Positions 14,242-34,129 of a stretch of 64,000 nucleotides of DNA are shown here, piece after piece. The first letter of the stretch is position 1. Every line of letters begins with the position of its first letter. Source of the stretch: a virus (Duplodnaviria; Heunggongvirae; Uroviricota; Caudoviricetes); IMG/VR virus record IMGVR_UViG_3300033692_000022; one strand, 5' to 3'. The translations under genes and the position numbers were made by a program. Under the pieces are notes generated by a model. The model worked only from the letters and a program-made list of their open reading frames with translations. It ran no database searches and was not told the origin of the DNA.

Positions 14242-14253
14242 GGAGTTGGTAAT

Positions 14254-15459: not shown

Positions 15460-15472
15460 TACTAAATAAATA

Positions 15473-15492
15473 GGCGGGGGCTTCCCCGCCTT
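15473..15492 (+). terminator. Rho-independent-like terminator hairpin (GGCGGGG-gctt-CCCCGCC)
   Basis: A 7–8 bp all-GC stem directly after the stop of the FN3-repeat gene, followed by a short TT. Confidence 0.5.
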
Positions 15493-15515
15493 AAGATACA
15501 TAAAGGAGTGATAAA

Positions 15516-16055: not shown

Positions 16056-16069
16056 GAGAGGTGAAATAA

Positions 16070-16615: not shown

Positions 16616-16638
16616 TATATTAAGGAAGGAGTGAAGGA

Positions 16639-19064: not shown

Positions 19065-19080
19065 TGGAGGTGAATTATAG

Positions 19081-22000
19081 ATGGCAGGACAAAAGTTAGT
19101 ATATGATTACTATAGAGAAAGAAGAGGTAGCTGGTACTGGCTTAGCTCAAATCTAAGAGAATGGCTAAATAGCGACCAGGAAAATGTAGGATATACTAAT
19201 GAACCTCCAAATAGTAGCAACCTAGGTTCTGATAGTTATGCGGATGAAGCCGGATTTTTAACTAACTTTACAACAGCAGAAAAAAATGCTATAGCAGTAA
19301 CAAGACACAGAGGGTATACCAGAGGTGTTGATAGTTCCGTAAAGGATGGTGGGAGTACTGATTTAAACTTTTCTTCGTCTTTTGATACTCCATTTGCTAA
19401 CTATTATTGCTCGGGTGTTGAAGATAATTGGGGCTCTTTTAATTATAAAATTTCAGATGATAAAGTATTTTTATTTTCTCCAGTAGAAATTCACCATTAC
19501 TCACAAAGTAGAAATTTCAACATAAAAAAAGCGCCTTCCCAGTATATAAGAAATAAATATAATATATCTTCAAATTATATAAAGTATACCGTTCAGAATG
19601 GGGAGCACTACGACAGACTTTGCGCAATTAGCGATGAAGGAACATTCTCTTCTACTAACTCTGACTCTACAACAGGAATAGCACCTGCTATACATCTCAA
19701 ACCCGATTATACGTTGGATAGTGGGAAAAAAGTATCAAATTTAAAAGTTGGAGAAGAAGTCGTATTTGGTAATTATGGTGGACACCAAATATCGTGGATA
19801 GTAGTTAATAAAACTCCAGATGACTTTGCATTGCTCTGGTCAAAAGAAGTAATAACTTTAAAAGCATACGATTCTCCTAATGATGACTTCTCCTGGGAGT
19901 ATTCAGACCATATAAATTTCAGCAACTATGATGTAAATATAATTAACGACCTTCAAAAATGGTATCCAACAAATGATAAAACTTTACCGAGACTTTATCT
20001 TCTCAATGAAGACGATCTAAATTCAAGACAAGACGGCGGATGGACCTTAAAATTACAGGCAGAAGATACAGGGTCCGGCATAGAAAAGATAGTATTACCT
20101 GATGGTACCGAAGTTTATGATAACTACGCTGAATATTATATTACTGAAAATAAAAGATATTTCATGCACACTGTAGACAATGCTGGGAATAGAAATAATC
20201 TAACTATTCCAGTAAGTAATATAAACCCACCTTCTTCTGTGGACATCAACTCATCATCTGATGGATGGACTAATTCAGACGTAAATGTAGAGATAAAAGC
20301 ATCTAATGACGTAAATGATTATTATGCAAATGAAATAATAACAAATAGTAGAGACTGGTATGGTCCAGCTTGGCCGAATTCTATATCTTACACTGGAAAA
20401 ACCTTCAGAGTGACAGGTAATATAGAATTAATAGATCACAGCGCAGATTTAGGTAATGTAAGAGCAAATGTGGGTTTTAGATATATAAGAAGATATAATA
20501 AAAACGATGGGTACGACATATCGAATAGTTGGCCCACAATAGAACATTTTTATCTTAGGGATATTAACGGAACACAGGCTAGTTTTGATTTTGAATACAC
20601 AGTACCTGGGGATTATTATAAAGATATAAGGCCATTTTTACAGATTGGAGTAGCACATCATAATCATAATTATACAGTAAAATACACTAATGTTAAATAC
20701 GAATTACTTGATAAAAGTGACTTTGGTATAGATTACATCAAACTACCAAATGGTCAGAAAATATATCAAGACACTTATACAACCACAATCACAGAAGAGG
20801 GAACGTATACTTTTGAGGTTATGGATAATAGAGGCGTAGTTACATCAAGAACTATAGAGGTGCTGATAGAAACTAACCCTCCAGATCTAAATATAAGTCA
20901 GGAAGTAACCAAGAAAACCAATCAAAGTTATGACCTCATTGTAAATGCTTCAGATTCCGAAAGCGGAGTTAAAAGAATACTGCAGCCCAACGGCGAATGG
21001 GTTGAATCTGATTCTTTAAGGTATAATATTTATCAAAATGGAACCTATGAGTTTACAGCAGAAGATAATGCTGGTAATAGAAAAACTAAATCAATAACAG
21101 TATCAAATATAGACAAGACTAGCCCAGTAGACCCCAATATCCATGTAGTTGATAAAGGAGAAAATCACGTAACACTTAATTGGATAGCAGATGATACAGA
21201 GTCAGATATAGATTCAATCAGGTTATATTTCCAAGAATCAGACAGTGATGGTAATCATCTGAAAGATATAGATATCAACGGAGATGGAAACACAGAATAC
21301 GACGTTGATGTTACTGGCCAGGAATCATATACGATTAATGGATTAAATGATTACACATACTACAGATATTATTTAAGAGTGATAGATTCAGTAGACAATG
21401 TAAGAAATGACGGCTATCATACCGTAAGAACTCAAGACACTACGGGGCCAATAGTAGATATAACATCGCACAACGATAATACTAATATCGGATATATCGA
21501 CGGCAATCAACTCACTTTAAGCGGAACAGCAGATGACAATGGAGAGGTTGATAGAGTAATCTTAAACGCTTCGGGCGCAGTCACACTTAATGACTTAGTT
21601 ATAGACGACAGCTCACCAGAAAACTGGAGTTATACAAGATCATATCCCGAAGGTCATACAAGACTAGAAGTTAAAGCAATAGACAAAGCCGGCAACGAAT
21701 CGGATGCCAAGTATATAGAATTTGATGTAGATACTGAAGCTCCTCAGATTGTATGGAATAATCACACAGATAAGAGCTGGCGCAACACTGTACCTGATGT
21801 CCACACTAATAATATAGATATAAACTCTGGTATTAGCACCTCAAAACTAGCAGTAACCTCAAATACAACTAAACCTTCCGACTGGATTAATGACTCCTCA
21901 CCTAGTAACACATACTTCCAAAACACATTAGAAGGAAAACCAGATGGTGAATGGTACTGTCATGTTGAAGTAACAGACAACAACGGCAACAGTACTTATA

Positions 22001-22830
22001 GTTACCAGGGACCATTTAAGATAGACAGAAGTGAGCCTACACATGTGTCACATTCCATATCTGGAGCAGATTATGTAAGAGATAATAATTACTATGTTAA
22101 ACCTAATAGGGAATTTTATATAGAAGTAGAGGGAGAAGAAAACACACTCCTTTCTCATAACTACCTAAATCTAAATGGTGACAACGTTGATATAAGAGCA
22201 TATCAGGTACTATCAGACGAATCATTTAATGAGTACAGAACAGGAAACTATGCTGAGATAATATCGGCTGAGAAGGTAAATTCAACAACTACAAAATTTA
22301 AAGTAAGAATAAAAGATAATGCACCTAACGGATTTATTTTCAATGTAAACGGATGGCACAAAAACGAGGCCGGCACATTAAGCAGATTCACTACTGATAT
22401 AGATATAATAGTAGATGCTAATCCTGCTCAAATGAATGGGTGGGAGATAAAGAACGCACCCTATTTCGATGGCAACACTTATTGGGGTAAACAGGGTGAT
22501 CAGATGACTTTTAACCTCAAGGGCTATGACGACGTAAGCGGGGCAAAAAGAGGTTACATTCAATTAGTTAACAAAGAGACCGGCGACGCCGAACACGCCT
22601 CATACAATAGGGATGAGGGCTATCTCAGCGATTCTAGGGAAGAGCCTAATGTAGATGTAACAACTGGTAGACTAATAAGCAGCGATGATAAAAATATGGA
22701 GATAGAGTTTGATTTTACTCTAGGTAATCAGCCGACAAATTATGACTTATGCTGGTACTGGTACGATAATGTTAAGAACACAATGGATTATACAGATACC
22801 GGCAAAGATATAGGAATAGAAATATCATAG
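19081..22830 (+). CDS. Giant Ig-like/FN3-rich tail fiber (1249 aa), truncated by a frame break
   Basis: It carries three copies of an approximately 90-aa Ig-like module (DSGSGIEKIVLPDGTEV...VDNAGNR; DSESGVKRILQPNGEWV...AEDNAGNRKTKSITV) and an FN3 module with a DINGDG loop. Confidence 0.5.
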   Translation: MAGQKLVYDYYRERRGSWYWLSSNLREWLNSDQENVGYTNEPPNSSNLGSDSYADEAGFLTNFTTAEKNAIAVTRHRGYTRGVDSSVKDGGSTDLNFSSSFDTPFANYYCSGVEDNWGSFNYKISDDKVFLFSPVEIHHYSQSRNFNIKKAPSQYIRNKYNISSNYIKYTVQNGEHYDRLCAISDEGTFSSTNSDSTTGIAPAIHLKPDYTLDSGKKVSNLKVGEEVVFGNYGGHQISWIVVNKTPDDFALLWSKEVITLKAYDSPNDDFSWEYSDHINFSNYDVNIINDLQKWYPTNDKTLPRLYLLNEDDLNSRQDGGWTLKLQAEDTGSGIEKIVLPDGTEVYDNYAEYYITENKRYFMHTVDNAGNRNNLTIPVSNINPPSSVDINSSSDGWTNSDVNVEIKASNDVNDYYANEIITNSRDWYGPAWPNSISYTGKTFRVTGNIELIDHSADLGNVRANVGFRYIRRYNKNDGYDISNSWPTIEHFYLRDINGTQASFDFEYTVPGDYYKDIRPFLQIGVAHHNHNYTVKYTNVKYELLDKSDFGIDYIKLPNGQKIYQDTYTTTITEEGTYTFEVMDNRGVVTSRTIEVLIETNPPDLNISQEVTKKTNQSYDLIVNASDSESGVKRILQPNGEWVESDSLRYNIYQNGTYEFTAEDNAGNRKTKSITVSNIDKTSPVDPNIHVVDKGENHVTLNWIADDTESDIDSIRLYFQESDSDGNHLKDIDINGDGNTEYDVDVTGQESYTINGLNDYTYYRYYLRVIDSVDNVRNDGYHTVRTQDTTGPIVDITSHNDNTNIGYIDGNQLTLSGTADDNGEVDRVILNASGAVTLNDLVIDDSSPENWSYTRSYPEGHTRLEVKAIDKAGNESDAKYIEFDVDTEAPQIVWNNHTDKSWRNTVPDVHTNNIDINSGISTSKLAVTSNTTKPSDWINDSSPSNTYFQNTLEGKPDGEWYCHVEVTDNNGNSTYSYQGPFKIDRSEPTHVSHSISGADYVRDNNYYVKPNREFYIEVEGEENTLLSHNYLNLNGDNVDIRAYQVLSDESFNEYRTGNYAEIISAEKVNSTTTKFKVRIKDNAPNGFIFNVNGWHKNEAGTLSRFTTDIDIIVDANPAQMNGWEIKNAPYFDGNTYWGKQGDQMTFNLKGYDDVSGAKRGYIQLVNKETGDAEHASYNRDEGYLSDSREEPNVDVTTGRLISSDDKNMEIEFDFTLGNQPTNYDLCWYWYDNVKNTMDYTDTGKDIGIEIS

Positions 22831-23369
22831 AGATAGATATTAATGTCGAGGACAGTCAGTCAGGAGTAAAAAGTGTCGAATACAAATTCGACCACAGCAC
22901 TCATTACTCTGGAGACAACTTAAGAACTACTGGTACTCAGGATACCCTCTTTATAGAAGCCCACGGTGAATGGTATCTTCATATAAGAGCAGAGGACAAT
23001 GCCGGGAATGTTGTAAGACAGACATTCGGTCCTTATGTTAATTACTCGGACCCTAAAAGATATATGAAGATCCAGACACCCGGCGGCGAACAGGAAATAC
23101 CACTATATGAACTCAATCAAAGAGTAGACAACAGGCTGAGAATAAAAGCAGCAGATGAAGTGGTATGTATAGGATTAGTCCCACCAGATGATAAGAGGGC
23201 AACAGAAATAAGAGTTAAGATGCCTGAAGCAATATATGCAGTAGAAGGGAACAGAAATGTATTCAGATTCTCAGAGATCGATCCTAACTTAAGTAATGAC
23301 TTTACTCTTGGGGAAGATGAAATAACAATAGATACTCAAAGAGGATTCGACGGTGGAGAATTAGTATAA
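22776..23369 (+). CDS. C-terminal continuation of the 19081 fiber in the −1 frame. It includes a fourth Ig-like module, and there is no start codon before 23064.
   Basis: The frame is open from 22776. It encodes DINVEDSQSGVKSVEYKF...HGEWYLHIRAEDNAGNVVRQTF, the same module as in the upstream ORF, with 290 nt lacking ATG/GTG/TTG. Confidence 0.5.
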   Translation, partial: EHNGLYRYRQRYRNRNIIEIDINVEDSQSGVKSVEYKFDHSTHYSGDNLRTTGTQDTLFIEAHGEWYLHIRAEDNAGNVVRQTFGPYVNYSDPKRYMKIQTPGGEQEIPLYELNQRVDNRLRIKAADEVVCIGLVPPDDKRATEIRVKMPEAIYAVEGNRNVFRFSEIDPNLSNDFTLGEDEITIDTQRGFDGGELV

Positions 23370-23383
23370 ACTAGGAGGCAGAA

Positions 23384-23791
23384 ATGAGTATATTAAATAA
23401 CTTACCCAACTGGAATGCACAGTCAGATAGGGTTGTAGAACCAGATAACGATAAGAAAGCAGCTGGGTGGAGGCTCGGTGAAGAGCCACCTCCTGGTTAC
23501 TTTAACTGGTTCTGGAATCTCGTATCCGATTCATTAAATATTTTAGATACACATAATCACGATGATAGATATTACACCAAAGGTTACTTTGATTCTCACG
23601 ATCATGACAGTTTATATTACAGAAAAGATTACATCGATTCTCACGAGCACGACGACAGATATTACACAAAAAATGATGTTAATAGTATGCTCGGGGCCAC
23701 CTATATTGAAAGCCCAACTGTTGGTAATATATTAGTATCAGACACCGAGCCAACTAATGCAGAAGAAAACGACATATGGATAAAGTTATAA
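23384..23791 (+). CDS. Short tail fiber protein: conserved N-terminal anchor domain plus HxHD-RYY histidine repeats
   Basis: LPNWNAQSDRVVEPDNDKKAAGWRLGEEPPPGYFNWFWNLVSDSLNILDTHNHDDRYYTK is shared with five other fiber genes. It also has repeats SHDHDSLYYRK and SHEHDDRYYTK. Confidence 0.45.
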   Translation: MSILNNLPNWNAQSDRVVEPDNDKKAAGWRLGEEPPPGYFNWFWNLVSDSLNILDTHNHDDRYYTKGYFDSHDHDSLYYRKDYIDSHEHDDRYYTKNDVNSMLGATYIESPTVGNILVSDTEPTNAEENDIWIKL

Positions 23792-23804
23792 AGGAGGCAG
23801 TAAA

Positions 23805-25667
23805 TTGGGATATATAACACCAGATAAATCACCGGGTATATACATGGACCCGATTACTGTCAACTTTAGTGTTGATAGCAGGGTAGTAAATATAGCAGAA
23901 ACTCAGGATGGCAGCAACCCAACAATAGCAAAATATATAGCATATGATAATCTAAACCCACCTAATCCATTCATAGCGACCGTACAGGACGGCAGGGGTA
24001 ATGTTCTGTTCGATGGTGGATTTCCAAAATACTACAATATGAGAGTAAATTCTTCCTGGACTTCATTTTCTCAACTTAATGATACATTTAAGTATTTTCA
24101 TAATGCTTTAGATTGGATAGCAAACGATGATAAGGTATCAGAAGGTAATCGTAAGATGTTATTTCTTGGTGATTCAAACCCTGGAGAATCTTACAACATC
24201 AAACAAACAGGCGGCAGTGATTTTAAAACATCTATAGAAACAATGTGTACTACTGGTAACTGGGACCCTACCTATCTGACAAGAGAAGATTTCAGCGGCG
24301 GCCAAATCGATTTAAGTTATGCTGATTTAGAGCCTTATGTTGGCGTATTCCTGATGTCGAGTAGGCATACATCTAATAGATATATAACTCAATCAACTGT
24401 AGATAATCTATTGGCTTTTAGAGAAGCCGGTAACGGTATGTTTATCATAACAGACCATGGTTCTAGTGCAGACAACGGTTTTTATAGAACTGCTAATTTC
24501 ATAGCTGAAGAACTTGGGGCTCAATTTTTAGGATATTATAATAGATCACCTGTTAATGTTGGTTTCTTAATAGATAACTACGGTAATCATCCTTTATGGT
24601 CTGGTATGGATAGGAGTGGATATGTCCACGCTGGAAGTTCGGAGTCTGAAATAATTGTAGATGAAACACCAACTACTACAACAGCAGACTCTCTTACTGT
24701 AAGTGAACAGGGTTTTAAGACAGCAAGATTCTTAATAGAGCTCGATACAGGAGAAAAGGTATTTGAAACATATTCCTACGGATTGAATGCTGGAGACCCT
24801 ATTACTTTCAATAACGATATTCAAAATGGAGAGCTTAAAATAGGATTCGGCAGAACTATAGATTTAGATTTCGATATAAATTTAGGAATAATGGACAGCG
24901 CTTCAGGGCTAGTAAGAAGGAACAGCGATGTAATAGCTCAGTGGTCAAAAGACAGCGGCGGAATGACAACAGAATGGTTTACCGAAAGTGGTAACAGTAC
25001 CATTAAGGTAGATGATGGGGACTCAATAAAGGTAGCCTTACAGTCTCCAGTCTATTATGCAGAGTCTTTTACTATTAATGCAGCACCTCGAACTTCGACA
25101 GCCATCGACATAAACCTCGAAGATAAGACAAGTAAATACATTTCACTAAGCTGGACCTATGATAGCAGGATAGAACTAGACCATCTCGAGCTTATCTTTT
25201 TAAAAAGCGACGGATCACAGATAGATATAGATGATGACGGTACATTAGAAGATAGGTTAAACCTCAATAAAAGCCTATCATTTAGTGCAAGTAATCTTGA
25301 GCCGGCAACAGAATATAAGTTCAAACTAAGAGTATATGATGTTAACGGCGGCAGTTTAGACAGCAGCTATTATACAGCTAAAACAAACGGAGTACTTAAG
25401 ATACTTGTCGATAATACCTACAAGATACCACGCAACGCTCTAGTAAAAAAAGGAACAGGCTGGTCGAATTTTACAACTCAAATAAAGAATAACGGAGAGT
25501 TTGAGGAAATCGACATAGGGCCTACGATACAAACTTCCATGTTTACTACTGACATGTGGACAGAGTTTTCAAAAGAGGTGCGGGCAATCCACCTGTTAGA
25601 TAATGACTCTGATCTATATGGCAGCAGCCTTGATATTATAGATGTAATAGACTCCTATGGAATATAG
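23805..25667 (+). CDS. Tail protein paralog A, part 1: N-terminal hydrolase-like domain (GDS / TDHG motifs), FN3 module, beta-rich region
   Basis: TTG start after ribosome-binding site AAGGAGGCAG. It is approximately 75% identical over its N-terminal 260 aa to the 27431 ORF. It contains LFLGDSNPGES and FIITDHGSSADNGF. Confidence 0.45.
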   Translation: MGYITPDKSPGIYMDPITVNFSVDSRVVNIAETQDGSNPTIAKYIAYDNLNPPNPFIATVQDGRGNVLFDGGFPKYYNMRVNSSWTSFSQLNDTFKYFHNALDWIANDDKVSEGNRKMLFLGDSNPGESYNIKQTGGSDFKTSIETMCTTGNWDPTYLTREDFSGGQIDLSYADLEPYVGVFLMSSRHTSNRYITQSTVDNLLAFREAGNGMFIITDHGSSADNGFYRTANFIAEELGAQFLGYYNRSPVNVGFLIDNYGNHPLWSGMDRSGYVHAGSSESEIIVDETPTTTTADSLTVSEQGFKTARFLIELDTGEKVFETYSYGLNAGDPITFNNDIQNGELKIGFGRTIDLDFDINLGIMDSASGLVRRNSDVIAQWSKDSGGMTTEWFTESGNSTIKVDDGDSIKVALQSPVYYAESFTINAAPRTSTAIDINLEDKTSKYISLSWTYDSRIELDHLELIFLKSDGSQIDIDDDGTLEDRLNLNKSLSFSASNLEPATEYKFKLRVYDVNGGSLDSSYYTAKTNGVLKILVDNTYKIPRNALVKKGTGWSNFTTQIKNNGEFEEIDIGPTIQTSMFTTDMWTEFSKEVRAIHLLDNDSDLYGSSLDIIDVIDSYGI

Positions 25668-26824
25668 GACACTGCAGACTTAATATAACAGAACCACCAC
25701 CTCTTGTAGCAAACGATGACTCATTTGAGATATACGAGGGTGGATATATAAATATTTATAAATCTCAGATGTTAGACAATGATTACGATGAAAGCGGGAA
25801 CGAACCAATCGAAATCATAGGTTTCTCTGGTGTTACTGGAGGAACACTAACCGAGTACGACAACTACATTAGATTCGATGTAACAAGTCAGGTAGGAGAA
25901 CCTGCAGAGTTTAAATATACAATAACTAACGCAGTAGGCATAGAAACTACAGCCTATGTAAAGTTAATTATTAAAAAGGGACTTATTGCAGGAATAGATA
26001 ATACTGATTCATATAAAGATATCGAAAAGACCATTCCTATTTCAACCCTCGACATAACAGACATTTCAGAAAACCCACCAATTAAGTTAATAGGTGTTAC
26101 AGATCCAAGCGGCGGAACAGTAACCTTTGACGATTATAACATCTATCTTACCTCAACAGCTGCGGCTGGCAGTAATATTTCATTCAATTATACAGTGCGA
26201 AATGATATTAATCTTACAGATACAGGAACTGTTAATGTGAAAGTTATGCCTACTCCTCAGATACAAACAGCTGATGATACATTCGAAGTTACCCAGGGTA
26301 ATCAGATATTGATTTCTAAATCTGGACTCACCAATAATGATACAGATGAAGGAGGATATTACCCACTAACAGTAACCAATGTATACAACGTAACAGGTGG
26401 AACACTTGATGTAAGCGGAGATACTATTACATTTACTTCTACAAGTCTTGCGGGAGAAGCCGCAGGTTTTAAGTATGATGTAGAAAACACTCAGGGCGTA
26501 ACTCAGACAGGAAATGTATATATCACTGTTAATCCACTTCCAGCCGTAGACTCCTTAATTTTTAGCGACGCACAAACAACCCAGGATAAGCTAAACGAAT
26601 ATACTCCTGATAGTATGCAGGACGTATTTACAAGCTGGTATAGATTCTCTCATCAAGGCGGGAATATACAGGTCAACCCTCTTACTATGTATGACGGCAC
26701 TACTCAATACGATTTATATAGCGAAAATATATGGAAGTACCACGCCGATGAAGATAGAATAGCCTGTCAGCAGAATACTCCTCAGCATGTTGGCTTTCTT
26801 CGCCGGGTGGAGATGATGACATGA
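25634..26824 (+). CDS. Tail protein paralog A, part 2, continuing part 1 in the −1 frame. The track ATG is at 25769.
   Basis: The frame is open from 25634 and encodes NIGHCRLNITEPPPLVANDDSFEIYEGG. This aligns to YIGHCEIKTSQTPNLVAMDDSFEVYEGG of the 28206 ORF, with no start codon upstream of 25769. Cadherin-like or Ig-like repeats follow. Confidence 0.45.
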   Translation, partial: YYRCNRLLWNIGHCRLNITEPPPLVANDDSFEIYEGGYINIYKSQMLDNDYDESGNEPIEIIGFSGVTGGTLTEYDNYIRFDVTSQVGEPAEFKYTITNAVGIETTAYVKLIIKKGLIAGIDNTDSYKDIEKTIPISTLDITDISENPPIKLIGVTDPSGGTVTFDDYNIYLTSTAAAGSNISFNYTVRNDINLTDTGTVNVKVMPTPQIQTADDTFEVTQGNQILISKSGLTNNDTDEGGYYPLTVTNVYNVTGGTLDVSGDTITFTSTSLAGEAAGFKYDVENTQGVTQTGNVYITVNPLPAVDSLIFSDAQTTQDKLNEYTPDSMQDVFTSWYRFSHQGGNIQVNPLTMYDGTTQYDLYSENIWKYHADEDRIACQQNTPQHVGFLRRVEMMT

Positions 26825-27411
26825 TCGGTATAGTTTTAGCCTATACTGAAACTTCTAATCCTTATGATGAACATACACTCATAGCTCAAAGAACTCACGG
26901 GGGGATAGGCGGAGGCGAATGGGCTATAATTTATAATAAATCAAAATCTGGGGATAGTGTGATAATAAACGATAGCATATCTGGTGATGATATAAGTGGG
27001 GGTTGGAGTGGAGATCGCACAAGAGTAAGAGCTGAGAGAGAAGGAAATATCATAAAAGTATATGCTTCTCCAATGAATTCAACTACTCTTGATCCAAATT
27101 CAATGTTCGAAATAGATTTAAGCTCAGATAGTAGACTCCACAAATTTATGGACGGAGGATCATACGGGTATTGTTGTTTATCACAGGACAGATCAACATT
27201 TACCGATATACAGTTCGAAGGTGGATTAGACAAATCCATAATCTTAGATATTGAAAATAATATAGTCTGGGAATATAGCTTCGAACAAAGCCAATGGATA
27301 GATACAGGAAGAACTATTCAGGACGAAATAGGATATGTAAGAGAGGTATATAATCCAAACACTGGTGATAGATACCTTGTTAAAGAAAACGAAATAATCA
27401 AAATGACTTAA
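26758..27411 (+). CDS. Tail protein paralog A, part 3, continuing part 2 in the −1 frame. The track ATG is at 26821.
   Basis: Upstream in the same frame, SPGGDDDMIGIVLAYTE aligns with SSNGDNDVIGLVIAFDRD of the 28206 ORF. The C-terminal YVREVYNPNTGDRYLVKENEIIKMT is nearly identical to the paralog B C-terminus. Confidence 0.45.
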   Translation, partial: NSLSAEYSSACWLSSPGGDDDMIGIVLAYTETSNPYDEHTLIAQRTHGGIGGGEWAIIYNKSKSGDSVIINDSISGDDISGGWSGDRTRVRAEREGNIIKVYASPMNSTTLDPNSMFEIDLSSDSRLHKFMDGGSYGYCCLSQDRSTFTDIQFEGGLDKSIILDIENNIVWEYSFEQSQWIDTGRTIQDEIGYVREVYNPNTGDRYLVKENEIIKMT

Positions 27412-27430
27412 GGAAAAGGAGGGGAATTTT

Positions 27431-28228
27431 ATGGGATACGTAATACCAGATAAACAACCTGGAATATATAAAGAACCATTTACTGTAGATTTTAATGTAG
27501 ATAGTAGTGTATCAAATGTAGTAGACACTCAAGATGGAAGCAATCCGACCATAGCAAAGTATATAGCATATGACAATTTAAACCCGCCAAATCCATTTAT
27601 AGCAACAGTTCAAGATGGTAAGGGTAATGTATTATTCGATGGTGGCTTCCCTAAGTACTATAATCACAAATGTGATACATCTTGGAGTTCGTTTTCCGAC
27701 CTTAATAACACCTTTAAGTATTTTTATAATGCTTTGAATTGGATAGCAAATGAAGAAAAAGTAGCTGAAGGGAATCGCAAAATACTTTTTATAGGAGATG
27801 CTATTCCAGGCGAGCCTTACAATATAAAAGAAACTGGCGGTAGTGATTTTAAAACATCAATAGAAACAATATGTAGAGTTGGGAATTGGAACCCTACTTA
27901 TAAGATAAGGACTGATTTTCCTAATAATCAAATAGATTTAAGCTATACAGACTTAGAACCTTATGTAGCGGTATTTCTAATGTCAAGTAGACACACTAGC
28001 ACTAAACATATCACAGATAGTACAGTAAATAACATGCTTGCCTTTAGAGAAGCAGGCAACGGTATATTCATGATTACCGATCATGGATCAAGTGCAGATA
28101 ATGGTTTTTATAAAACTGCTAATTACATTGCAGAAGAACTTGGTGCACACTTCATTGGTGATTATGATAGAACTCCAGTTAACGTAGGCTACCTTATCGA
28201 TAATTATGGCAACCATCCATTGTGGTGA
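27431..28228 (+). CDS. Tail protein paralog B, part 1 (hydrolase-like N-terminal domain)
   Basis: Ribosome-binding site AAGGAGGGGAATTTTATG. It matches paralog A residues 1–265 closely (IAKYIAYDNLNPPNPFIATVQDG identical). It ends at NYGNHPLW*, where paralog A continues. Confidence 0.45.
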   Translation: MGYVIPDKQPGIYKEPFTVDFNVDSSVSNVVDTQDGSNPTIAKYIAYDNLNPPNPFIATVQDGKGNVLFDGGFPKYYNHKCDTSWSSFSDLNNTFKYFYNALNWIANEEKVAEGNRKILFIGDAIPGEPYNIKETGGSDFKTSIETICRVGNWNPTYKIRTDFPNNQIDLSYTDLEPYVAVFLMSSRHTSTKHITDSTVNNMLAFREAGNGIFMITDHGSSADNGFYKTANYIAEELGAHFIGDYDRTPVNVGYLIDNYGNHPLW

Positions 28229-31200
28229 GACTCCTATATCTACCAGCACAGACCCTCTGGTAGTTGATCAGTCAGGCTATAAAACAGCAAGGTTTTTGAT
28301 AGAGCTAGACAATGGAGAAACTAAATTCGAAAGTTATTCTTATGGGTTAAATACTGAAGAGCCGATTGTATTTAATCACAGCCTAATAGATAATAAATTG
28401 GATTTAGGACTTAAGCGAGATTTCAATTTAGATTTCAGTATAGTACTAGGAGTGATGGACAGCGCCAACGGGTTTATTAAAAGAAATAACGAAGTAGTTG
28501 GCCAGTGGTCGAAAGACCAGACTTCTTTTGATAAGACCTGGTTTACCGATAGCGGCACCAACAATATTAAAGTAGAACTAGGAGATTTAATAGAAATAAC
28601 ATTAGAAGATCCTTTGTATTACAGTAAATCAATGACAATAGATGGTAAAGAGCCTATCTTAAATACGTCTCCGCAATCTAGTGGTAACTATGTGGCTCTT
28701 GAATGGGATGTTAGTGATGGCTCACAGGATTTCACATATATGCTTCACAAAAAGAAGTCCTCAGATAGTGTATTCCAAACTATACCAGCTAAAGAAAACC
28801 TTAAGATACTTAATGTATATCCAGAAAATGGGGTAAGTGAAACAATAACCTTCACAAACTGGAAAGGAGAAACTACGACAACCTTAAAATCTGCCTCCCT
28901 AAAGAAATGGATGGAAGAACCAAATAACACACATTCAAAAGGATGGGGTAAAGGCCTTATAGATGTCGATATAGTTTCATTACTGGACTTTAATAATTCA
29001 CCAGACAGTTATCTTAAGACTAATGGCAGTTATGACTATGATGTTGTAGTATTTGGAACCTGGGATTGTAATGGAGATTGCTCAAGCGGTGGAGATACTA
29101 GCGCAGCTGCGGCAGCAAGCATAGAAACTTTCATCAAGACGGGCAGGGGTGTTCTACTCGGTCATGATACATTACACAAAAACCATCCTAATTTCAATAG
29201 TCTTGTTAGTTATTTTAATGTTACTTTAGATACAACGGGTATAGGATATACAGAACTTGAAATAACTAAAAAAGGATTACTCACCAACTATCCCTGGTAT
29301 ATAGGAGATATCGGAGATAAACTATCTATTCCCATGGCACATGTAACCAATCAGATGGCGCATGGAGATGTATGGTTTAAATTTACCGATGACACCTGGG
29401 GTGGTTATGACTATGTTGCTAATGACCTAACAAGAAATTTTTATCTTACTACATGGAATAATACTGCCTTAATTCAGACCGGTCACAGTGATGCTCAGGC
29501 GACTTCTGATGAACAGAAACTACTTGCTAACACACTATTTTATCTAGGTCAGGTTACAACCGCAACTAGCTGGAATGATATGTCCGGGCAGGATCTCGCC
29601 GGGCCAGAAAAACCAGTCATAAATAACGTAAAAATAAACCAAGACACTAAGAAAATAGAAATAGATTACAGTTCTCCAAATGATAATGGAACCACATATG
29701 ACTACTACGTTACTGCAAAAGGTAGTGAAGGATTAACAACCCAAACCAACACTTCTACTTGTACTATAAAAACAAATATTGCCGGTTATTCAATATTGGT
29801 AGATGACAGTCCAAGTAGTGTGCCCAATAACGATATAAACACTACAGAAACTTCATATGATTTGGAACATGAAAAATATGATAATTTCTATGTCCATATT
29901 GCAGCAGTAGATAATGCAGGAAACATATCAAAAACCTCACACTATCATTATACAGACAATACCGCTCCTGATTTAGATTTAACACAAAAAATATCAGAGT
30001 GGACACCTACAGAAGAAACTATAGTTGCTGAAGCTACTGATATAGGGTCTGGGGTTAGCAGAATACAACTCCCTAACGGTGAGTGGGTTAATCAATCAAA
30101 AGTAGAATTTAAAGCCACATCAAATGGTGATTATACTTTCACTGCAGAAGATTATACCGGCAACAGAACAACAAAGACTATTACCGTATACGGAGTTGGA
30201 CCAGAAAGTAATCCATTAATAAATTTAAAAATAACAGAAGTTACAAGTAGTACCATAGACCTTAGATGGGAAATATCAGAAACCATAGATGTAGACTATA
30301 TAAATTTAATGTTCCTCAAAAAAGACGGAGAAGAGTTTAAAAATATAGATATTAATGGTGACGGCTCTATAGATGATTATCTAAATATAAACGATGCAAC
30401 TTCATACAGTGTTAATAAACTCGAGCCCAGAACAGAATATTACTTTAAAATAATAGTCTATGACAATGACCAAACTCAGATGAGCAGTGCTTTATTGTCG
30501 GCAAAAACAAAAGGGCTAATAAAGGTAAATAAGAATGGCAGTTTCAAAATAGCAAAAGATGTACTCGTTAAAAAGAATAATGACTGGGAGTCCTTTAGCG
30601 GTAAAATAAAGAAGGACGGTAAACAGGTTAAGGTAGATATAGGTACTACAATTAAAACAAATCTATACGAAGAAGATGTCTGGCCGGGCTTCGAAAAAGA
30701 AATAAGGGCCATTCACTTATTAGAAGATGATAGTGATATATATGGAGATACTGATCTTAATATTGTCGATATCAAAAACGTATACGGAGGGGATGCCGAA
30801 TTCGTAGGAAGCGATTCTCTGGTAGAAACATCAGTAAACTTTAGAAATAATGCTGAGATAGGAGAAACTGCTGGTTTTACTTATGTAGTAGAAAACTCCA
30901 GAGGTAGAAGATATATCGGGCATTGTGAAATAAAGACATCTCAAACTCCAAACTTAGTAGCAATGGATGACTCGTTTGAAGTTTATGAAGGCGGATTTGT
31001 TGATATATATAAGTCGCAAATACTAGCCAATGATTATGATACAGAAAATAATACTCCAATAGAAATAGTAGATGTATTCGATGCAAAAGGTGGGACTCCT
31101 ACTGTATATGATAATTATATTAGATTCCAGGTGAATGATGAAATTGGAGATCCTGCTCAATTTAGATATACAATCAGAAACTCAATAGGTCAAGAAACAA

Positions 31201-32696
31201 CTGCATACGTAAAATTACTAATCAAAAGAGGATTAAAAGCTGAAGATCAAACTCTAACTGGTTATAAAGGAAAGGAAAAATTAATTCCTCTATCGCAGTT
31301 AAATATTACAGACCTATCAGAGTCGCCTCCATTCGAAATCACAGAGATTAAAGATACAGCAAATGGCAGCTTGATAAGTTATAACAAAGATGAAATAAGA
31401 TTTGTACCAACTGGAGAGATCGGCGAGGAAGCTAGTTTCGTATATCAAGTCAAAAATCAAACAGAATTAATTGATGAAGCCAAAATTACTCTAACCATAG
31501 AAGAGCCACCACAGATAACCTGTAATGACGATTTATTTGAAGTCACTCAAGGAAAAGAACTTATAATATCAAAATCAAATTTAAGCGATAATGATACAGA
31601 CTCGAAGGGGTTATACCCTTTAAGTGTAACTTCAGTTAAAGAACCTATTGGATGTAGTTTGAGCACTGATGGAGATACCATAATAGTAACACCAATAGTA
31701 AATGCAATGGAAGAATGTGGGTTCAAATATGAAGTAGAAAATACCGAAGGGATAAAAGGTAGTGGTAATGTGTTTATTAATGTTAAGCCATTACCAGAAA
31801 TAGAAGCTCTAATTTACGAGAATCAAAACGAAATAGATAATGAAATCGAGAATATCGTACCTCCTACAATGAAAAATATATTTAATCAGTGGGATAGATT
31901 CGATGGGGATAATTTATACACAGCAGGCTCTAGTTATGATGGCAACGCCTCATCCTGGCAATTTAGTGAAAACCCGGACAGAGTGATACAACCCGTAAAT
32001 GTGGCGCCCTATAATGGGTTTTTAAGCAACAAAGAAGTAGACTTTTATAGTCACGAAGCAACGCTAACTTCTAGCAATGGGGATAATGATGTTATTGGTC
32101 TTGTTATAGCTTTTGATAGAGATAACAATAAAAATCATACGTTAAGTGTAATAATATCAAAAGGTGATCCTATACCTAAAAGCGGTTACGGTATTGTATA
32201 TGACTATGATTATACTCATGGTGGAAGAATTCATGATAGAGATTGGATTGTTGAAGAAAAAAATGTTATATCTACCGCTGCTGGGTGGAGTGGTAACAAA
32301 ATCAGAGTAAGAGTAGATAGAGATAAAGATATAATAAAGGTATATTGCTCTGGTTGGAATAATTTGTCAAGCTATAAGATAGAGTCAGAGATAGTTATAG
32401 ATTTAAATAGTGATCCAAGACTAGAACGGTTTAAAGGAAAAAAGAAATATGGCTACGGGAACTACTCTCAAGCCAATACCACATATTTAGATATAGATTT
32501 CAAAGGTGGTATTAACTACACTAAGATGTATAACTTCGAAACAGAAACTGTATATAAATATAATATAGATAGCAATTCTTGGGAGGCGACGAATACTACT
32601 ATCCAGGATGAATTAGGGTATGTAAGAGAAGTGGTTAACCCGAAAACAGGAGAAAGATATCTTATCAAAGAAAACGAAATAATTAAAATGACATAG
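28206..32696 (+). CDS. Tail protein paralog B, part 2 (1496 aa): beta-rich region, a ThuA/GATase1-like domain, Ig-like and FN3 modules, cadherin-like repeats and a C-terminal lectin-like domain
   Basis: Contains YDVVVFGTWDC...GRGVLLGHDTLH (GATase1/ThuA-like), EATDIGSGVSRIQLPNGEWV...AEDYTGNRTTKTITV (Ig-like module) and an FN3 module with DINGDGSIDD. The C-terminus matches the 26821 ORF. Confidence 0.5.
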   Translation: MATIHCGETPISTSTDPLVVDQSGYKTARFLIELDNGETKFESYSYGLNTEEPIVFNHSLIDNKLDLGLKRDFNLDFSIVLGVMDSANGFIKRNNEVVGQWSKDQTSFDKTWFTDSGTNNIKVELGDLIEITLEDPLYYSKSMTIDGKEPILNTSPQSSGNYVALEWDVSDGSQDFTYMLHKKKSSDSVFQTIPAKENLKILNVYPENGVSETITFTNWKGETTTTLKSASLKKWMEEPNNTHSKGWGKGLIDVDIVSLLDFNNSPDSYLKTNGSYDYDVVVFGTWDCNGDCSSGGDTSAAAAASIETFIKTGRGVLLGHDTLHKNHPNFNSLVSYFNVTLDTTGIGYTELEITKKGLLTNYPWYIGDIGDKLSIPMAHVTNQMAHGDVWFKFTDDTWGGYDYVANDLTRNFYLTTWNNTALIQTGHSDAQATSDEQKLLANTLFYLGQVTTATSWNDMSGQDLAGPEKPVINNVKINQDTKKIEIDYSSPNDNGTTYDYYVTAKGSEGLTTQTNTSTCTIKTNIAGYSILVDDSPSSVPNNDINTTETSYDLEHEKYDNFYVHIAAVDNAGNISKTSHYHYTDNTAPDLDLTQKISEWTPTEETIVAEATDIGSGVSRIQLPNGEWVNQSKVEFKATSNGDYTFTAEDYTGNRTTKTITVYGVGPESNPLINLKITEVTSSTIDLRWEISETIDVDYINLMFLKKDGEEFKNIDINGDGSIDDYLNINDATSYSVNKLEPRTEYYFKIIVYDNDQTQMSSALLSAKTKGLIKVNKNGSFKIAKDVLVKKNNDWESFSGKIKKDGKQVKVDIGTTIKTNLYEEDVWPGFEKEIRAIHLLEDDSDIYGDTDLNIVDIKNVYGGDAEFVGSDSLVETSVNFRNNAEIGETAGFTYVVENSRGRRYIGHCEIKTSQTPNLVAMDDSFEVYEGGFVDIYKSQILANDYDTENNTPIEIVDVFDAKGGTPTVYDNYIRFQVNDEIGDPAQFRYTIRNSIGQETTAYVKLLIKRGLKAEDQTLTGYKGKEKLIPLSQLNITDLSESPPFEITEIKDTANGSLISYNKDEIRFVPTGEIGEEASFVYQVKNQTELIDEAKITLTIEEPPQITCNDDLFEVTQGKELIISKSNLSDNDTDSKGLYPLSVTSVKEPIGCSLSTDGDTIIVTPIVNAMEECGFKYEVENTEGIKGSGNVFINVKPLPEIEALIYENQNEIDNEIENIVPPTMKNIFNQWDRFDGDNLYTAGSSYDGNASSWQFSENPDRVIQPVNVAPYNGFLSNKEVDFYSHEATLTSSNGDNDVIGLVIAFDRDNNKNHTLSVIISKGDPIPKSGYGIVYDYDYTHGGRIHDRDWIVEEKNVISTAAGWSGNKIRVRVDRDKDIIKVYCSGWNNLSSYKIESEIVIDLNSDPRLERFKGKKKYGYGNYSQANTTYLDIDFKGGINYTKMYNFETETVYKYNIDSNSWEATNTTIQDELGYVREVVNPKTGERYLIKENEIIKMT

Positions 32697-32707: not shown

Positions 32708-33325
32708 ATGTCGATACTAGGAGAATTACCAGATTGGGATGCGCCGTCTAATAAAATAATAGAACCAGATATAACTAAAAAAACTAGTGGCTGGAATCCA
32801 GGGGAAAGGCCTCCAGCCTACTATTTTAATTGGTTCTGGACGAGAGTATCAAACGCTCTAAAAATTTTAGACGCACACAATCACGATAGTTTGTATTATA
32901 AAAAATCCGAGATAGACAGCAAAATACAGCAATCAGTAGCAAGCAATGAAGACTTGGTAGAATCAATGTACCCAATAGGATCAATTTATATTAATGCAAC
33001 AAACAATACCAATCCTGGCACTTTATTAGGCTTTGGAACTTGGGAAAGATTTGGTGAAGGTAGAGTATTAGTCAGCCAAGATAGCACAGATGCGGATTTT
33101 GATGCAATTGGCGAAACAGGCGGAGAAAAAACACATCAATTAACTGAATCAGAAATGCCATCGCATAATCACAATTATACCAGAGTATCGGGAGGTTATG
33201 GAGGTGGTGGTCTTAATGTAGATGGCAGCACAAGTACAGTACCTACTAGTCTAGCTGGCGGCGATTCTCCCCATAACAACCTTCAACCATACATCACAGT
33301 TTATATGTGGGTAAGAATATCATAA
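32708..33325 (+). CDS. Tail fiber with conserved N-terminal anchor and a C-terminal phage tail-collar-like domain
   Basis: N-terminal LPDWDAPSNKIIEPD...GWNPGERPPAYYFNWFWTRVSNALKILDAHNHDSLYY. The C-terminal PIGSIYINATNNTNPGTLLGFGTWERFGEGRVLV...GGEKTHQLTESEMPSHNHNY...PHNNLQPYITVYMWVRI fits the Collar (PF07484-like) pattern. Confidence 0.55.
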   Translation: MSILGELPDWDAPSNKIIEPDITKKTSGWNPGERPPAYYFNWFWTRVSNALKILDAHNHDSLYYKKSEIDSKIQQSVASNEDLVESMYPIGSIYINATNNTNPGTLLGFGTWERFGEGRVLVSQDSTDADFDAIGETGGEKTHQLTESEMPSHNHNYTRVSGGYGGGGLNVDGSTSTVPTSLAGGDSPHNNLQPYITVYMWVRIS

Positions 33326-33355: not shown

Positions 33356-34129
33356 ATGGATAGCTTTTATCTTCCAGAATGGACCCCACCAGCCAATATG
33401 CTGGTGGAACCAGAGATTGAAAGAAGAAACCTAGGATGGGGCGCTGGAGAATCACCACCTGCAGGTGTGTTTAACTGGTTTTGGAATAAGACATATAATG
33501 CTTTAAAAGTAATAAGAGACCACGATCATGATGCAAGATATTATACTAGAATGGAAATGGGAAATATTATTTCCAATATGGCCCCAAAGGAACATGAACA
33601 CGAAGGTTCAGATATTATATCTAAAGTATCAGAGGCAGCAAATGCAGACGAGGCAACAAACTCACAAACACTTCAGGGCAGACCACCAGAACAGTTTGCC
33701 GACAATGTACACTACCACGATGATAGATACTACACAGAAGACGAGATCGATCAAAAGCTAGGCTTCAAATCCAACACTGGCCACACTCACAACTACGCGC
33801 CAGCAGAACACATCCATGATGATATATATAAAACTGAATCAGAGATAATTAATCTTGCCAAAGCAGTTAGCGTAGAAGATATATCAATAATCCAGGGGAC
33901 AATAGAAGACGGAGAGAAACTACCATTACCAAACGGCTACACTGAAAGTCAATGCAGTTGGGTAGTATCACCAAGACAGGTGGCCACAACCGGTAGAACT
34001 GACGGATATGACGATGGTAAGGGAATAAGATTCTATGCAGATAATGATCGTAACGTTATTGCTAGATTCGATGGGCTTGGTGAAGTTTCTGGTACTGCTA
34101 ACTTTATAGTTATAGGAGTTAAAAAATAA
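33356..34129 (+). CDS. Tail fiber with conserved N-terminal anchor and His-rich HxHD-RYY repeats
   Basis: N-terminal LPEWTPPANMLVEPE...GWGAGESPPAGVFNWFWNKTYNALKVIRDHDHDARYYTR. Further repeats KEHEHEGSD, VHYHDDRYYTEDEIDQKL, GHTHNYAPAEHIHDDIYKTESEI. Confidence 0.5.
   Translation: MDSFYLPEWTPPANMLVEPEIERRNLGWGAGESPPAGVFNWFWNKTYNALKVIRDHDHDARYYTRMEMGNIISNMAPKEHEHEGSDIISKVSEAANADEATNSQTLQGRPPEQFADNVHYHDDRYYTEDEIDQKLGFKSNTGHTHNYAPAEHIHDDIYKTESEIINLAKAVSVEDISIIQGTIEDGEKLPLPNGYTESQCSWVVSPRQVATTGRTDGYDDGKGIRFYADNDRNVIARFDGLGEVSGTANFIVIGVKK

What the first reader, a model, noticed from the sequence alone, without database searches (positions are those of the whole stretch)
23805..32696. Tandem ~4–5 kb segmental duplication of a tail protein carrying enzyme-like domains (SGNH/GATase1-like)
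**What the sequence shows**
- 23805–27411 and 27431–32696 are paralogous end to end: same N-terminal domain, FN3 module and cadherin-like repeat block, and a near-identical C-terminal 25 aa.
- Paralog B is about 330 aa longer, with an extra ThuA/GATase1-like domain and an Ig module.
- The shared N-terminal domain has GDS and TDHG motifs reminiscent of SGNH hydrolases (possible esterase or deacetylase).

**Interpretation**
- Such a domain would be expected if the phage removes acetyl or ester decorations from surface polysaccharide.
Basis: partly seen in the sequence, partly recalled or inferred. Interest (0 to 1): 0.55.

Follow-up and report, generated by a model that had tools for sequence, protein, structure and literature searches.

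The report
Paralogous jumbo-phage fibre genes, broken here
Two neighbouring, anciently duplicated genes of an uncultivated ~200-kb phage encode very large modular virion proteins that are probably host-binding fibres; the proposed esterase domain is not one, and the genes look broken in this window only because short pieces of sequence are missing from this copy of the genome.

Summary
The paralogy is real. 23805-27411 (A) and 27431-32696 (B) align end to end. The duplication is ancient: synonymous sites are saturated.

In this window neither copy is one ORF. A is three ORFs and B is two, because of three blunt frame-shifting deletions of 124, 46 and 62 nt. A public contig identical at every aligned base (ENA k141_29228) carries both genes intact, at 1258 and 1775 aa. 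The window lacks eight such segments, all in the strain-variable fibre region. I read this as most likely an assembly artefact.

The SGNH idea fails. The N-terminal module models confidently (pLDDT 93) as a class-I glutamine-amidotransferase-like (GATase1-like) fold plus Ig-like sandwiches. The 'GDS' serine is kept in only 7 of 57 homologues. The module belongs to the uncharacterised phiKZ gp201 / PhiPA3 gp235 family of virion proteins.

The C-terminal domain sits in the same ORF as the N-module in 25 of 84 relatives.

Verdict: an expanded member of a known but uncharacterised family of jumbo-phage virion proteins. Moderate interest.

The parts
23805..25667 (+). Paralog A, fragment 1 (620 aa). 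TTG start with an AAGGAGG Shine-Dalgarno sequence. Contains the N-module, FN3, a beta-rich linker and the start of cadherin-like repeat 1.
   Evidence: ORF list; SD; identical to residues 1-619 of the intact 1258-aa gene, L086 6205-9981
23805..25097 (+). gp201/gp235-type N-module of A (aa 1-431). N-terminal beta strands, a GATase1-like alpha/beta domain (about aa 60-265, 23982-24599) and two Ig-like beta-sandwiches (aa 287-431, 24663-25097).
25107..25367 (+). FN3 domain of A
   Evidence: Pfam fn3, 24.3 bits, just under the 25-bit cut-off; aligns to the FN3 of B, which scores 29.8 bits
25661..25662 (.). Blunt junction. 124 nt present in the intact contig (L086 8062-8185, second half of cadherin-like repeat 1) are missing here, which shifts the frame.
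25667..26824 (+). Paralog A, fragment 2 (frame open from 25634; first ATG at 25769, no SD). Contains the rest of the four Big_9/cadherin-like repeats and the start of the C-domain.
   Evidence: Pfam Big_9 5.5e-17, Cadherin_4, Cadherin_5; 99.7% identical to intact A residues 650-1027
26793..26794 (.). Blunt junction. 46 nt (L086 9318-9363) are missing, which shifts the frame.
26788..27411 (+). Paralog A, fragment 3: the C-terminal domain (ORF call 26821-27411, 196 aa).
   Evidence: phrog_36886, phrog_33406 and phrog_21285; 100% identical to intact A residues 1041-1245
27431..28228 (+). Paralog B, fragment 1 (265 aa; ATG with AAGGAGG SD): the GATase1-like part of the N-module.
   Evidence: phrog_11065 E 9e-91; 100% identical to residues 1-265 of intact B, P0242
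28226..28227 (.). Blunt junction. 62 nt (L086 about 10797-10857) are missing. This removes 21 codons that include the family's conserved AGGSES motif, and it shifts the frame.
28206..32696 (+). Paralog B, fragment 2 (1496 aa as called; no SD). From 28227 it equals residues 287-1775 of intact B.
28659..29948 (+). Captured module in B (intact B aa 431-860): a small beta domain, a ThuA-like alpha/beta domain (about 28800-29552) and an FN3. 50% identical to Ethanoligenens P0129 aa 37-470.
30015..30185 (+). Ig/OmpL47-type beta domain at the end of B's extra segment. It has 39%-identical relatives in the upstream 1464-aa gene (20044-20214 and 20818-21102).
   Evidence: NCBIfam barrel_OmpL47, sub-threshold; tblastn
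30213..30488 (+). FN3 domain of B, orthologous to the FN3 of A
   Evidence: Pfam fn3, 29.8 bits; alignment
30798..31790 (+). Big_9/cadherin-like repeat block of B (about four repeats of roughly 95 aa)
   Evidence: Pfam Big_9 1.4e-14, Cadherin_5 1.6e-7; internal repeats
31803..32696 (+). C-terminal domain of B. The family has no Pfam model and no solved structure. It also occurs in the 0305phi8-36 gp163 tail fibre and in PhiPA3 gp235.
   Evidence: BLASTP 2e-18 to gp163 residues 857-1087; 1102 library representatives; found in the same ORF as the N-module in 25 of 84 relatives

Best explanation
A and B are two anciently duplicated, co-oriented genes in the baseplate/fibre module of an uncultivated ~200-kb myophage. 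The phage is a distant relative of Bacillus phage 0305phi8-36, and its strong AGGAGG ribosome-binding sites and low G+C suggest a Bacillota host.

Both genes are expanded members of the phiKZ gp201 / PhiPA3 gp235 family of virion proteins. Each has a conserved N-module (a GATase1-like alpha/beta domain plus two Ig-like sandwiches) and a conserved C-terminal domain. Between these two ends, this lineage has inserted an FN3, a linker and four cadherin-like/Big_9 repeats. B additionally carries a module of about 430 aa captured from exported Bacillota ThuA-like proteins (which NCBI names DUF5057), plus an Ig-type domain.

Inferred mechanism:
- The proteins sit at the virion periphery as extended fibres or adhesins.
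- The Ig, FN3 and cadherin-like repeats act as a stalk and as weak glycan binders.
- The C-domain, and in B the ThuA-like module, engage or process host surface polymers.
- Having two diverged paralogs broadens host-surface recognition.

The frame breaks seen in this window are not biology of the gene family. They are three of eight blunt losses of 43-124 nt that are peculiar to this contig. They most likely arose where strain microdiversity fragmented the assembly.
For: Shown:
- End-to-end paralogy. pS is 0.67-0.78 in all segments, while pN is 0.13 in the N-domain and 0.08 in the last 32 codons. So the duplication is ancient and the conserved ends are held by selection, not by gene conversion.
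- Family membership of the N-module: phrog_11065 at 9e-109, tblastn hits to phiKZ gp201, PhiPA3 gp235, 201phi2-1, RP12, Psa21, SCTP-2 gp99 and PaBG gp238 'putative tail fiber', and 138 metagenomic homologues on 200-320-kb contigs.
- Folds.
- The captured module is 50% identical to chromosomal Bacillota proteins and keeps all 48 invariant residues of that family.
- The C-domain is shared with the mass-spectrometry-verified virion protein gp163 of 0305phi8-36. It lies in the same ORF as the N-module in 25 of 84 relatives, and 10 more keep only its last ~55 aa.
- Context in the intact contig: sheath-initiator, Baseplate_J, VWA and Gp10_C genes nearby, and four small fibre genes with a shared N-terminal motif.
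- Window 1-57897 matches ENA k141_29228 with a single mismatch across all aligned blocks. The differences are eight blunt deletions, all between 11448 and 28226.
- Intact B also occurs in two other strains.
- Strain divergence is about 0% in most flanking 1-kb bins but reaches 9-19% per kb in parts of the fibre region.

Inferred: virion location, the binding role and the artefact origin of the deletions.
Against: - No experiment or solved structure places this family in a tail. The 2026 phiKZ structural atlas (40 proteins) does not mention gp201 (PMC13250141). In phiKZ and PhiPA3 the gene lies beside a helicase gene, not in the tail module.
- The N-module is internal, not N-terminal, in some relatives, so a simple role as an N-terminal anchor is not secure.
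- The many invariant polar residues suggest a catalytic or ligand site that this explanation leaves undefined.
- The deletion junctions show no k-mer overlap or microhomology, so the way an assembler would have produced them is not demonstrated.
- The fragmented gene calls exist in a public JGI/IMG contig, so a real deletion variant cannot be excluded.
Confidence: 0.65

Rival explanations
1. One reading: the shared N-terminal domain is an SGNH-type esterase or deacetylase that strips acetyl or ester decorations from host surface polysaccharide.
For: GDS and TDHG strings are present in A. GDS follows a beta strand, as block I does in SGNH enzymes. Deacetylating tail proteins are known in other phages (my own knowledge).
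Against: - The Ser of GDS is present in 7 of 57 members, Ala in 27 of 57, and B has GDA.
- There is no DxxH block.
- There is no Pfam or NCBIfam lipase/GDSL hit.
Confidence: 0.03
2. The deletions are real. This contig represents a defective or host-range-shifted subpopulation in which five fibre or baseplate-periphery genes, including A and B, were recently inactivated. The lambda PaPa stf frameshift is a comparable case.
For: - The same fragmented ORFs are called on a public 134.5-kb JGI/IMG contig.
- The downstream frames are still fully open, as expected for very recent events.
- The deletions cluster in host-range genes.
Against: - Eight independent blunt deletions with no microhomology, plus a single mismatch over about 58 kb, is an odd mutational spectrum.
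- At least five of the eight lengths are not multiples of three, and the deletions disrupt several large structural genes at once. One of them removes a conserved family motif.
- Four other assemblies, including a 100%-identical one, are intact.
Confidence: 0.2
3. The breaks are functional. Either programmed ribosomal frameshifting is at work, or the genes are deliberately split and make separate N-domain and fibre polypeptides.
For: There is an ATGA stop/start overlap with a GGTGGAG motif at 26821. The B2 ATG lies 21 nt before the B1 stop, which could allow coupling.
Against: - No slippery heptamer or prfB-like site at any break.
- Starts 25769 and 28206 lack the strong SD used by other genes.
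- In 84 relatives the module always lies in one frame.
- Intact genes exist in identical and sibling genomes.
- The breaks coincide with missing coding sequence.
Confidence: 0.02
4. This is compatible with the best explanation. The gp201-type N-module is itself an enzyme, for example a Ser/Asp-His hydrolase built on the GATase1-like fold, as in S51 peptidases. With the ThuA-like module, B would then carry two catalytic domains, and the proteins would act as surface-polymer-processing fibres.
For: - D62, D70, K75, R206, T216, D217, N231 and R247 are invariant (57 of 57). D123 and H218 are in 56 of 57. S279-E280-S281 is in all 54 members that have a residue there. This holds across homologues that are only about 30% identical.
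- D123, S185 and T216-D217-H218 sit at the C-terminal ends of the parallel strands, the usual active-site edge.
- The ThuA-like module has invariant H166, D167, H225, D234, H273, D281 and E282. Some of its bacterial relatives carry weak, sub-threshold Pfam matches to dockerin and source names such as cohesin or OmpL47-type.
Against:
- S185 is not invariant (47 of 57).
- Many GATase1-like and ThuA-like domains are non-catalytic.
- There is no biochemical precedent for either family.
Confidence: 0.22

Closest known systems
phiKZ gp201 / PhiPA3 gp235 / 201phi2-1 gp298 family of jumbo-phage virion structural proteins (phrog_11065)
   Same: The N-module of about 430 aa is homologous: 30-41% identity by tblastn and 9e-109 to the PHROG. 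PhiPA3 gp235 also has the same C-terminal domain, at 1e-94 to the profile. Members are annotated as virion proteins.
   Different: Typical members are 400-1000 aa, single-copy within the 10 kb on either side that was examined, and have no FN3, cadherin or ThuA insertions. Here there are two tandem copies of 1258 and 1775 aa. The host lineage also differs (Bacillota-type phage rather than Pseudomonas or Ralstonia chimalliviruses). The function of the family is unknown.
Bacillus phage 0305phi8-36 gp163 (2143-aa tail fibre protein, detected in virions by mass spectrometry)
   Same: It shares the C-domain (29% identity, E 2e-18), has FN3 repeats, and lies in the same kind of late structural gene cluster. 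The phages are distant relatives.
   Different: gp163 lacks the gp201-type N-module. Its copy of the domain is internal (residues 857-1087), not C-terminal.
Exported Bacillota proteins that NCBI names 'DUF5057 domain-containing' (for example Ethanoligenens harbinense, 620 aa)
   Same: 50% identity over 430 aa with B residues 431-860. All invariant residues are retained. The core has a ThuA-like fold.
   Different: The bacterial proteins are free-standing secreted or cell-surface proteins. In B the module is embedded in a phage virion protein. Neither the phage segment nor the bacterial homologue reaches the Pfam DUF5057 cut-off.
ThuA-like / class-I glutamine-amidotransferase-like fold (PDB 1t0b, 4jqs, 2gk3, 3rht)
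   Different: Sequence identity is 10-18%. Neither alignment has an invariant Cys, so the canonical Cys-His-Glu amidotransferase triad is absent. The N-domain and insert profiles are not detectably homologous to each other (hhalign probability 1%).
SGNH/GDSL hydrolases
   Same: Only a GDS string after a beta strand and a three-layer alpha/beta architecture.
   Different: The fold neighbours are GATase1-like, the Ser is not conserved, and blocks III and V are absent.

Membership tests
SGNH/GDSL hydrolase | Block I: GDS(L) with a conserved nucleophilic Ser | tested here: not met
   Ser124 is present in 7 of 57 homologues, Ala in 27 of 57, and paralog B has GDA
SGNH/GDSL hydrolase | Block V: DxxH catalytic pair (and block III GxND) | tested here: not met
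   The only conserved D/H pair is the adjacent T216-D217-H218-G219. There is no conserved GxND.
SGNH/GDSL hydrolase | SGNH fold | tested here: not met
phiKZ gp201 / PhiPA3 gp235 virion protein family (phrog_11065) | Full-length match of the ~430-aa N-module to the family profile | tested here: met
   A aa 1-431 at E 9e-109 and B aa 1-265 at E 9e-91. All invariant residues are present in A and in intact B.
phiKZ gp201 / PhiPA3 gp235 virion protein family (phrog_11065) | Module encoded in one continuous ORF | tested here: inconclusive
   Met for A in the window. Not met for B in the window (split at residue 265). Met for both in the identical contig L086.
phiKZ gp201 / PhiPA3 gp235 virion protein family (phrog_11065) | Physical presence in virions | not testable with these tools
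   Only the annotations of homologues are available. The phiKZ atlas does not mention gp201.
ThuA-like / GATase1-like fold (insert of B) | Structural match to ThuA-like proteins | tested here: met
Class-I glutamine amidotransferase (catalytic) | Cys-His-Glu triad with a nucleophile-elbow Cys | tested here: not met
   Neither family alignment has an invariant or near-invariant Cys
Pfam DUF5057 (PF16480) | Score above the gathering threshold | tested here: not met
   The phage segment gives no hit at E<=1. The bacterial homologue P0129 scores 23.0 bits against a cut-off of 27.9. The name comes from NCBI annotations of the homologues.
Phage tail fibre C-domain (phrog_33406 / phrog_36886; 0305phi8-36 gp163) | Profile and pairwise match of the C-terminal ~290 aa | tested here: met
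   7e-24 and 4e-23; BLASTP 2e-18; all 30 sampled homologues hit both PHROGs
Bacterial Ig / cadherin-like repeats (Big_9, Cadherin_4, Cadherin_5) | Pfam score above the gathering threshold | tested here: met
   Big_9 scores 62.9 bits in A and 55.2 bits in B against a cut-off of 23.6. Cadherin_5 scores 36.8 and 31.5 bits against 26.5.
Programmed ribosomal frameshift site | Slippery heptamer, or stop-adjacent shift site with a stimulator, conserved in relatives | tested here: not met
   No such motif at 25634-25667, 26758-26824 or 28188-28228. Relatives and the identical contig are in frame.

The most novel reading that the evidence does not exclude
The gp201/gp235-type N-module, conserved from Pseudomonas chimalliviruses to this Bacillota-type jumbo phage, may be a virion-borne enzyme of a new kind. 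It would be built on a GATase1-like scaffold, with an active site formed by conserved D123, T216-D217-H218 and S279-E280-S281. Paralog B would then be a fibre with two different enzyme-like modules, the second captured from host-type exported ThuA-like proteins. That would assign a function to a conserved virion protein that the phiKZ structural atlas does not mention.
Probability: 0.2. Interest if true: 0.6.

Novelty: new member of a known kind. Interest (0 to 1): 0.32.

Why it matters
- It shows that the phiKZ gp201 / PhiPA3 gp235 family has two conserved ends: a GATase1-like N-module and a C-terminal domain that is also found in a verified virion fibre protein of 0305phi8-36. These two ends tolerate very large adhesin-type insertions between them. 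This is indirect evidence that the still-unplaced family is a peripheral, host-facing virion component.
- It documents in-frame capture of a near-complete bacterial exported ThuA-like protein by a phage fibre gene.
- It is a caution for genome scans. The apparent pseudogenes or frameshifts here are peculiar to one public contig, and they disappear in an identical assembly.

Tried and rejected
- Megablast of the region against 50,697 phage records gave no match.
- Sequence or profile searches of the PDB found nothing for the N-module, the insert, the whole of B fragment 2 or the C-domain.
- hhalign of the N-module family against the insert family gave a topologically sensible alignment around GxG-hhhh-(T/G)(D/H)(H/D), but a probability of only 1%. 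No homology is claimed.
- I searched for slippery sites and Shine-Dalgarno sequences at the fragment starts, and rejected programmed frameshifting.
- The short homologues P0029 and P0115 are cut short within the N-module (they end at ...HPLWDNMS and ...RSPVNV). I take them for contig-end fragments, not evidence of a conserved split.
- An exact look-up of the 265-aa B1 protein was not on record in that index. It was later found as a JGI/IMG gene call.
- I tested gene conversion as the cause of the conserved N-domain and C-terminal tail, and rejected it because synonymous sites are saturated there too.
- I tested whether the deleted stretches are hypervariable patches. In B, the strain substitutions lie elsewhere.
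- Literature searches for gp201, gp298, PHIKZ201 and DUF5057 found no functional information. Thomas et al. 2012 is not held.

Full report
**1. What is in the window**

- 23805-27411 is three same-strand ORFs of 620, 351 and 196 aa.
- 27431-32696 is two ORFs of 265 and 1496 aa.

Despite this, the two intervals are homologous from end to end.
- blastn gives an ungapped 795-nt match at 74% identity at the 5' ends. It stops exactly at the stop codon of the 265-aa ORF.
- Further matches at 66-67% follow, and the last 98 nt match at 81%.
- When the fragments are joined conceptually, the two proteins align throughout.

The three frame changes coincide with places where one copy lacks sequence that the other copy has. 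A lacks about 43 aa of a cadherin-like repeat and about 13 aa at the start of the C-terminal domain. B lacks 21 aa after residue 265.

None of the break sites has a slippery heptamer or a prfB-like site. The internal starts at 25769 and 28206 lack the strong AGGAGG Shine-Dalgarno sequence that nearly every other gene in the window has.

**2. The breaks are peculiar to this copy of the genome**

A profile search with the C-terminal domain returned two proteins that settle the matter.
- P0242 (1775 aa) is 100% identical to both B fragments.
- P0244 (1245 aa) is 99.7-100% identical to the three A fragments.
- Each carries extra residues exactly at the break points.

P0242 is encoded on ENA ERZ27245728 contig k141_29228 (202,621 bp). 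On that contig A is one gene of 1258 aa and B is one gene of 1775 aa.

Window 1-57897 matches that contig with a single mismatch across all aligned blocks. The differences are eight blunt deletions, all lying between window positions 11448 and 28226:

| Length | Window junction |
|---|---|
| 43 nt | 11448/9 |
| ~78 nt | ~17254 |
| 52 nt | 17501/2 |
| 52 nt | 22820/1 |
| 54 nt | 23276/7 |
| 124 nt | 25661/2 |
| 46 nt | 26793/4 |
| 62 nt | 28226 |

The five junctions I inspected have no flanking microhomology and no shared motif.

The deletions also split three upstream genes: a 923-aa VWA-domain gene, an 851-aa gene and a 1464-aa gene.

The fragmented products (265, 1496, 351, 607 and 196 aa) are exactly the gene calls on a 134,508-bp JGI/IMG contig. 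So the window is a public assembly and was not altered afterwards.

Intact B also occurs in two sibling strains that differ by 15-17 substitutions. None of those substitutions lies in the deleted stretch.

Divergence between strains is about 0% in most flanking 1-kb bins but is mosaic in the fibre region, where it reaches 9-19% per kb.

My reading is that microdiversity fragmented the assembly graph in this region and that sequence was lost when the pieces were joined. I hold this as an inference, at roughly 2 to 1 over a real, very recent deletion variant. Only the reads can decide between the two.

**3. Age of the duplication**

Synonymous differences are saturated in every segment (pS 0.67-0.78). 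Non-synonymous divergence is low in the first 265 codons (pN 0.13, 77% amino-acid identity) and in the last 32 codons (pN 0.08). It is 0.32-0.39 elsewhere.

The duplication is therefore old. The conserved N-domain and C-terminal tail are maintained by purifying selection, not by recent gene conversion.

**4. The N-terminal module**

It has no Pfam or NCBIfam hit. It matches phrog_11065 'virion structural protein' at 9e-109.

tblastn finds it in 78 phage records, all of them jumbo phages of Pseudomonas, Ralstonia or Salicola. Examples are phiKZ gp201, PhiPA3 gp235, 201phi2-1, RP12, Psa21, SCTP-2 gp99 and PaBG gp238, which is annotated 'putative tail fiber'. There are also 138 metagenomic homologues, mostly on contigs of 200-320 kb.

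In 84 relatives the module is always in one reading frame and is single-copy within the 10 kb on either side that was examined. Tandem duplication is therefore unusual for this family.

No SGNH hydrolase appears among the 60 matches listed. The Ser of 'GDS' is present in 7 of 57 members, Ala in 27 of 57, and B has GDA. The SGNH esterase interpretation is therefore rejected.

What is conserved is the following:
- D62, D70-G-G-F-P-K75, R206, T216-D217, G219, N231 and R247 are in 57 of 57 members. D123 and H218 are in 56 of 57.
- A-G-x-S279-E280-S281 is nearly invariant. The Ser-Glu-Ser part is in all 54 members that have a residue there.
- Several of these residues sit at the C-terminal ends of the parallel strands.

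This pattern is compatible with an unrecognised catalytic or ligand-binding site. I could not check the geometry.

No function is reported for the family. The 2026 phiKZ structural atlas (40 proteins) never mentions gp201 (PMC13250141).

**5. The extra segment of B**

B residues 431-860 are 50% identical (E 6e-132) to residues 37-470 of a 620-aa exported protein of Ethanoligenens harbinense. There are 206 homologues. Those that carry a source name are mostly chromosomal proteins of Bacillota, which NCBI names 'DUF5057 domain-containing'. A few carry source names such as cohesin or OmpL47-type, or weak sub-threshold Pfam matches to dockerin.

The length difference is not as stated. B is 517 aa longer than A, not about 330.

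The phage copy keeps all 48 invariant residues of the family, including H166, D167, H225, D234, H273, D281 and E282.

The family is widespread in bacterial chromosomes, whereas none of the other gp201-type relatives examined carries the module. The parsimonious direction of transfer is therefore from bacterium to phage. This is an inference.

The Ig/OmpL47-type domain that ends the segment has 39%-identical copies in the upstream 1464-aa gene. This indicates domain shuffling within the gene cluster.

**6. The C-terminal domain**

It has no Pfam model and no relative in the PDB by profile search. It matches phrog_33406 'tail fiber protein', phrog_36886 and phrog_21285.

It is 29% identical (E 2e-18) to residues 857-1087 of 0305phi8-36 gp163, a 2143-aa fibre protein detected in virions by mass spectrometry. 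The family has 1102 representatives, and the domain usually lies at the C-terminus of proteins of 300-3000 aa.

It occurs in the same ORF as the gp201-type N-module in 25 of 84 relatives, including PhiPA3 gp235, SCTP-2 gp99 and PaBG gp238. Ten further relatives keep only its last ~55 aa.

A and B are thus family members in which adhesin-type domains have been inserted between two conserved ends. The inserted domains are an FN3, a linker and about four Big_9/cadherin-like repeats, plus the ThuA-like module in B.

**7. Context**

The window's phage is a distant relative of Bacillus phage 0305phi8-36, of KLEB27-3 and of Moorella phage MTATph1, at about 30% amino-acid identity.

The surrounding genes are a baseplate and fibre module:
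- sheath initiator and Baseplate_J genes;
- large Ig, VWA and FN3 proteins;
- four small fibre genes with a shared N-terminal motif;
- two proteins with a Gp10_C domain.

**8. Verdict**

The most likely biology is a pair of old, diverged, host-facing fibre or adhesin proteins of a jumbo phage. The virion location and the binding role are inferred, not shown.

An enzymatic role for the GATase1-like N-module and for the captured ThuA-like module remains possible and is the most interesting open reading.

The apparent fragmentation should not be interpreted biologically until it has been checked against reads.

Noticed in passing
window 11448-28226 (junctions 11448/9, ~17254, 17501/2, 22820/1, 23276/7, 25661/2, 26793/4, 28226): Eight blunt losses of 43-124 nt relative to ENA contig k141_29228, which is otherwise identical apart from a single mismatch. 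They also split a 923-aa VWA-domain gene (10679-13407), an 851-aa gene (16639-19064) and a 1464-aa gene (19081-23369). There is no microhomology at the five junctions inspected. The origin (assembly artefact or real variant) is unresolved.
   Followed up: partly
window 23384-23791, 32708-33325, 33356-34129, 34716-35543: Four small fibre-type genes share an N-terminal motif (LPxW..EP..K..GW..GE.PP..FNWFW...L..H.HD). They flank the A/B pair and match the N-termini of tail-fibre PHROGs. The 32708 gene and the neighbouring gene at 35544-36374 both end in a Gp10_C domain.
   Followed up: partly
window about 12000-35000, compared with L088, L089 and L092: Contigs of the same phage from sibling samples are almost identical in most flanking 1-kb bins. 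In the fibre genes they show mosaic blocks of 1-19% divergence per kb, including 16-19% within gene A. This is typical of recombination in host-range genes.
   Followed up: partly
window 52845-53762 (- strand): A tyrosine recombinase/integrase (Phage_integrase and SAM-like domains) is the only sizeable minus-strand gene. It lies between primase-like and DnaB-like genes in a ~200-kb phage genome. This could mean a temperate or plasmid-like lifestyle, or a mobile insertion.
   Followed up: no
window 20044-20214 and 20818-21102: The upstream 1464-aa protein (weak DUF6273, Big_13 and fn3 matches) carries Ig/OmpL47-type domains that are 39% identical to the one at the end of B's captured segment. 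This indicates domain exchange among the fibre genes.
   Followed up: no
loci L036, L040, L042, L044, L045, L047 and others (IMG/VR relatives): In one subgroup of the gp201-type family, an in-frame insertion of about 170 aa follows residue ~78 of the N-module. In tblastn it shows up as a two-piece match.
   Followed up: no
window 49083-49712 and the contig genes just downstream (L090 12503-13383): A lysis cassette (an Amidase_3 endolysin followed by a Phage_holin_6_1 holin) sits between the structural and replication modules.
   Followed up: no
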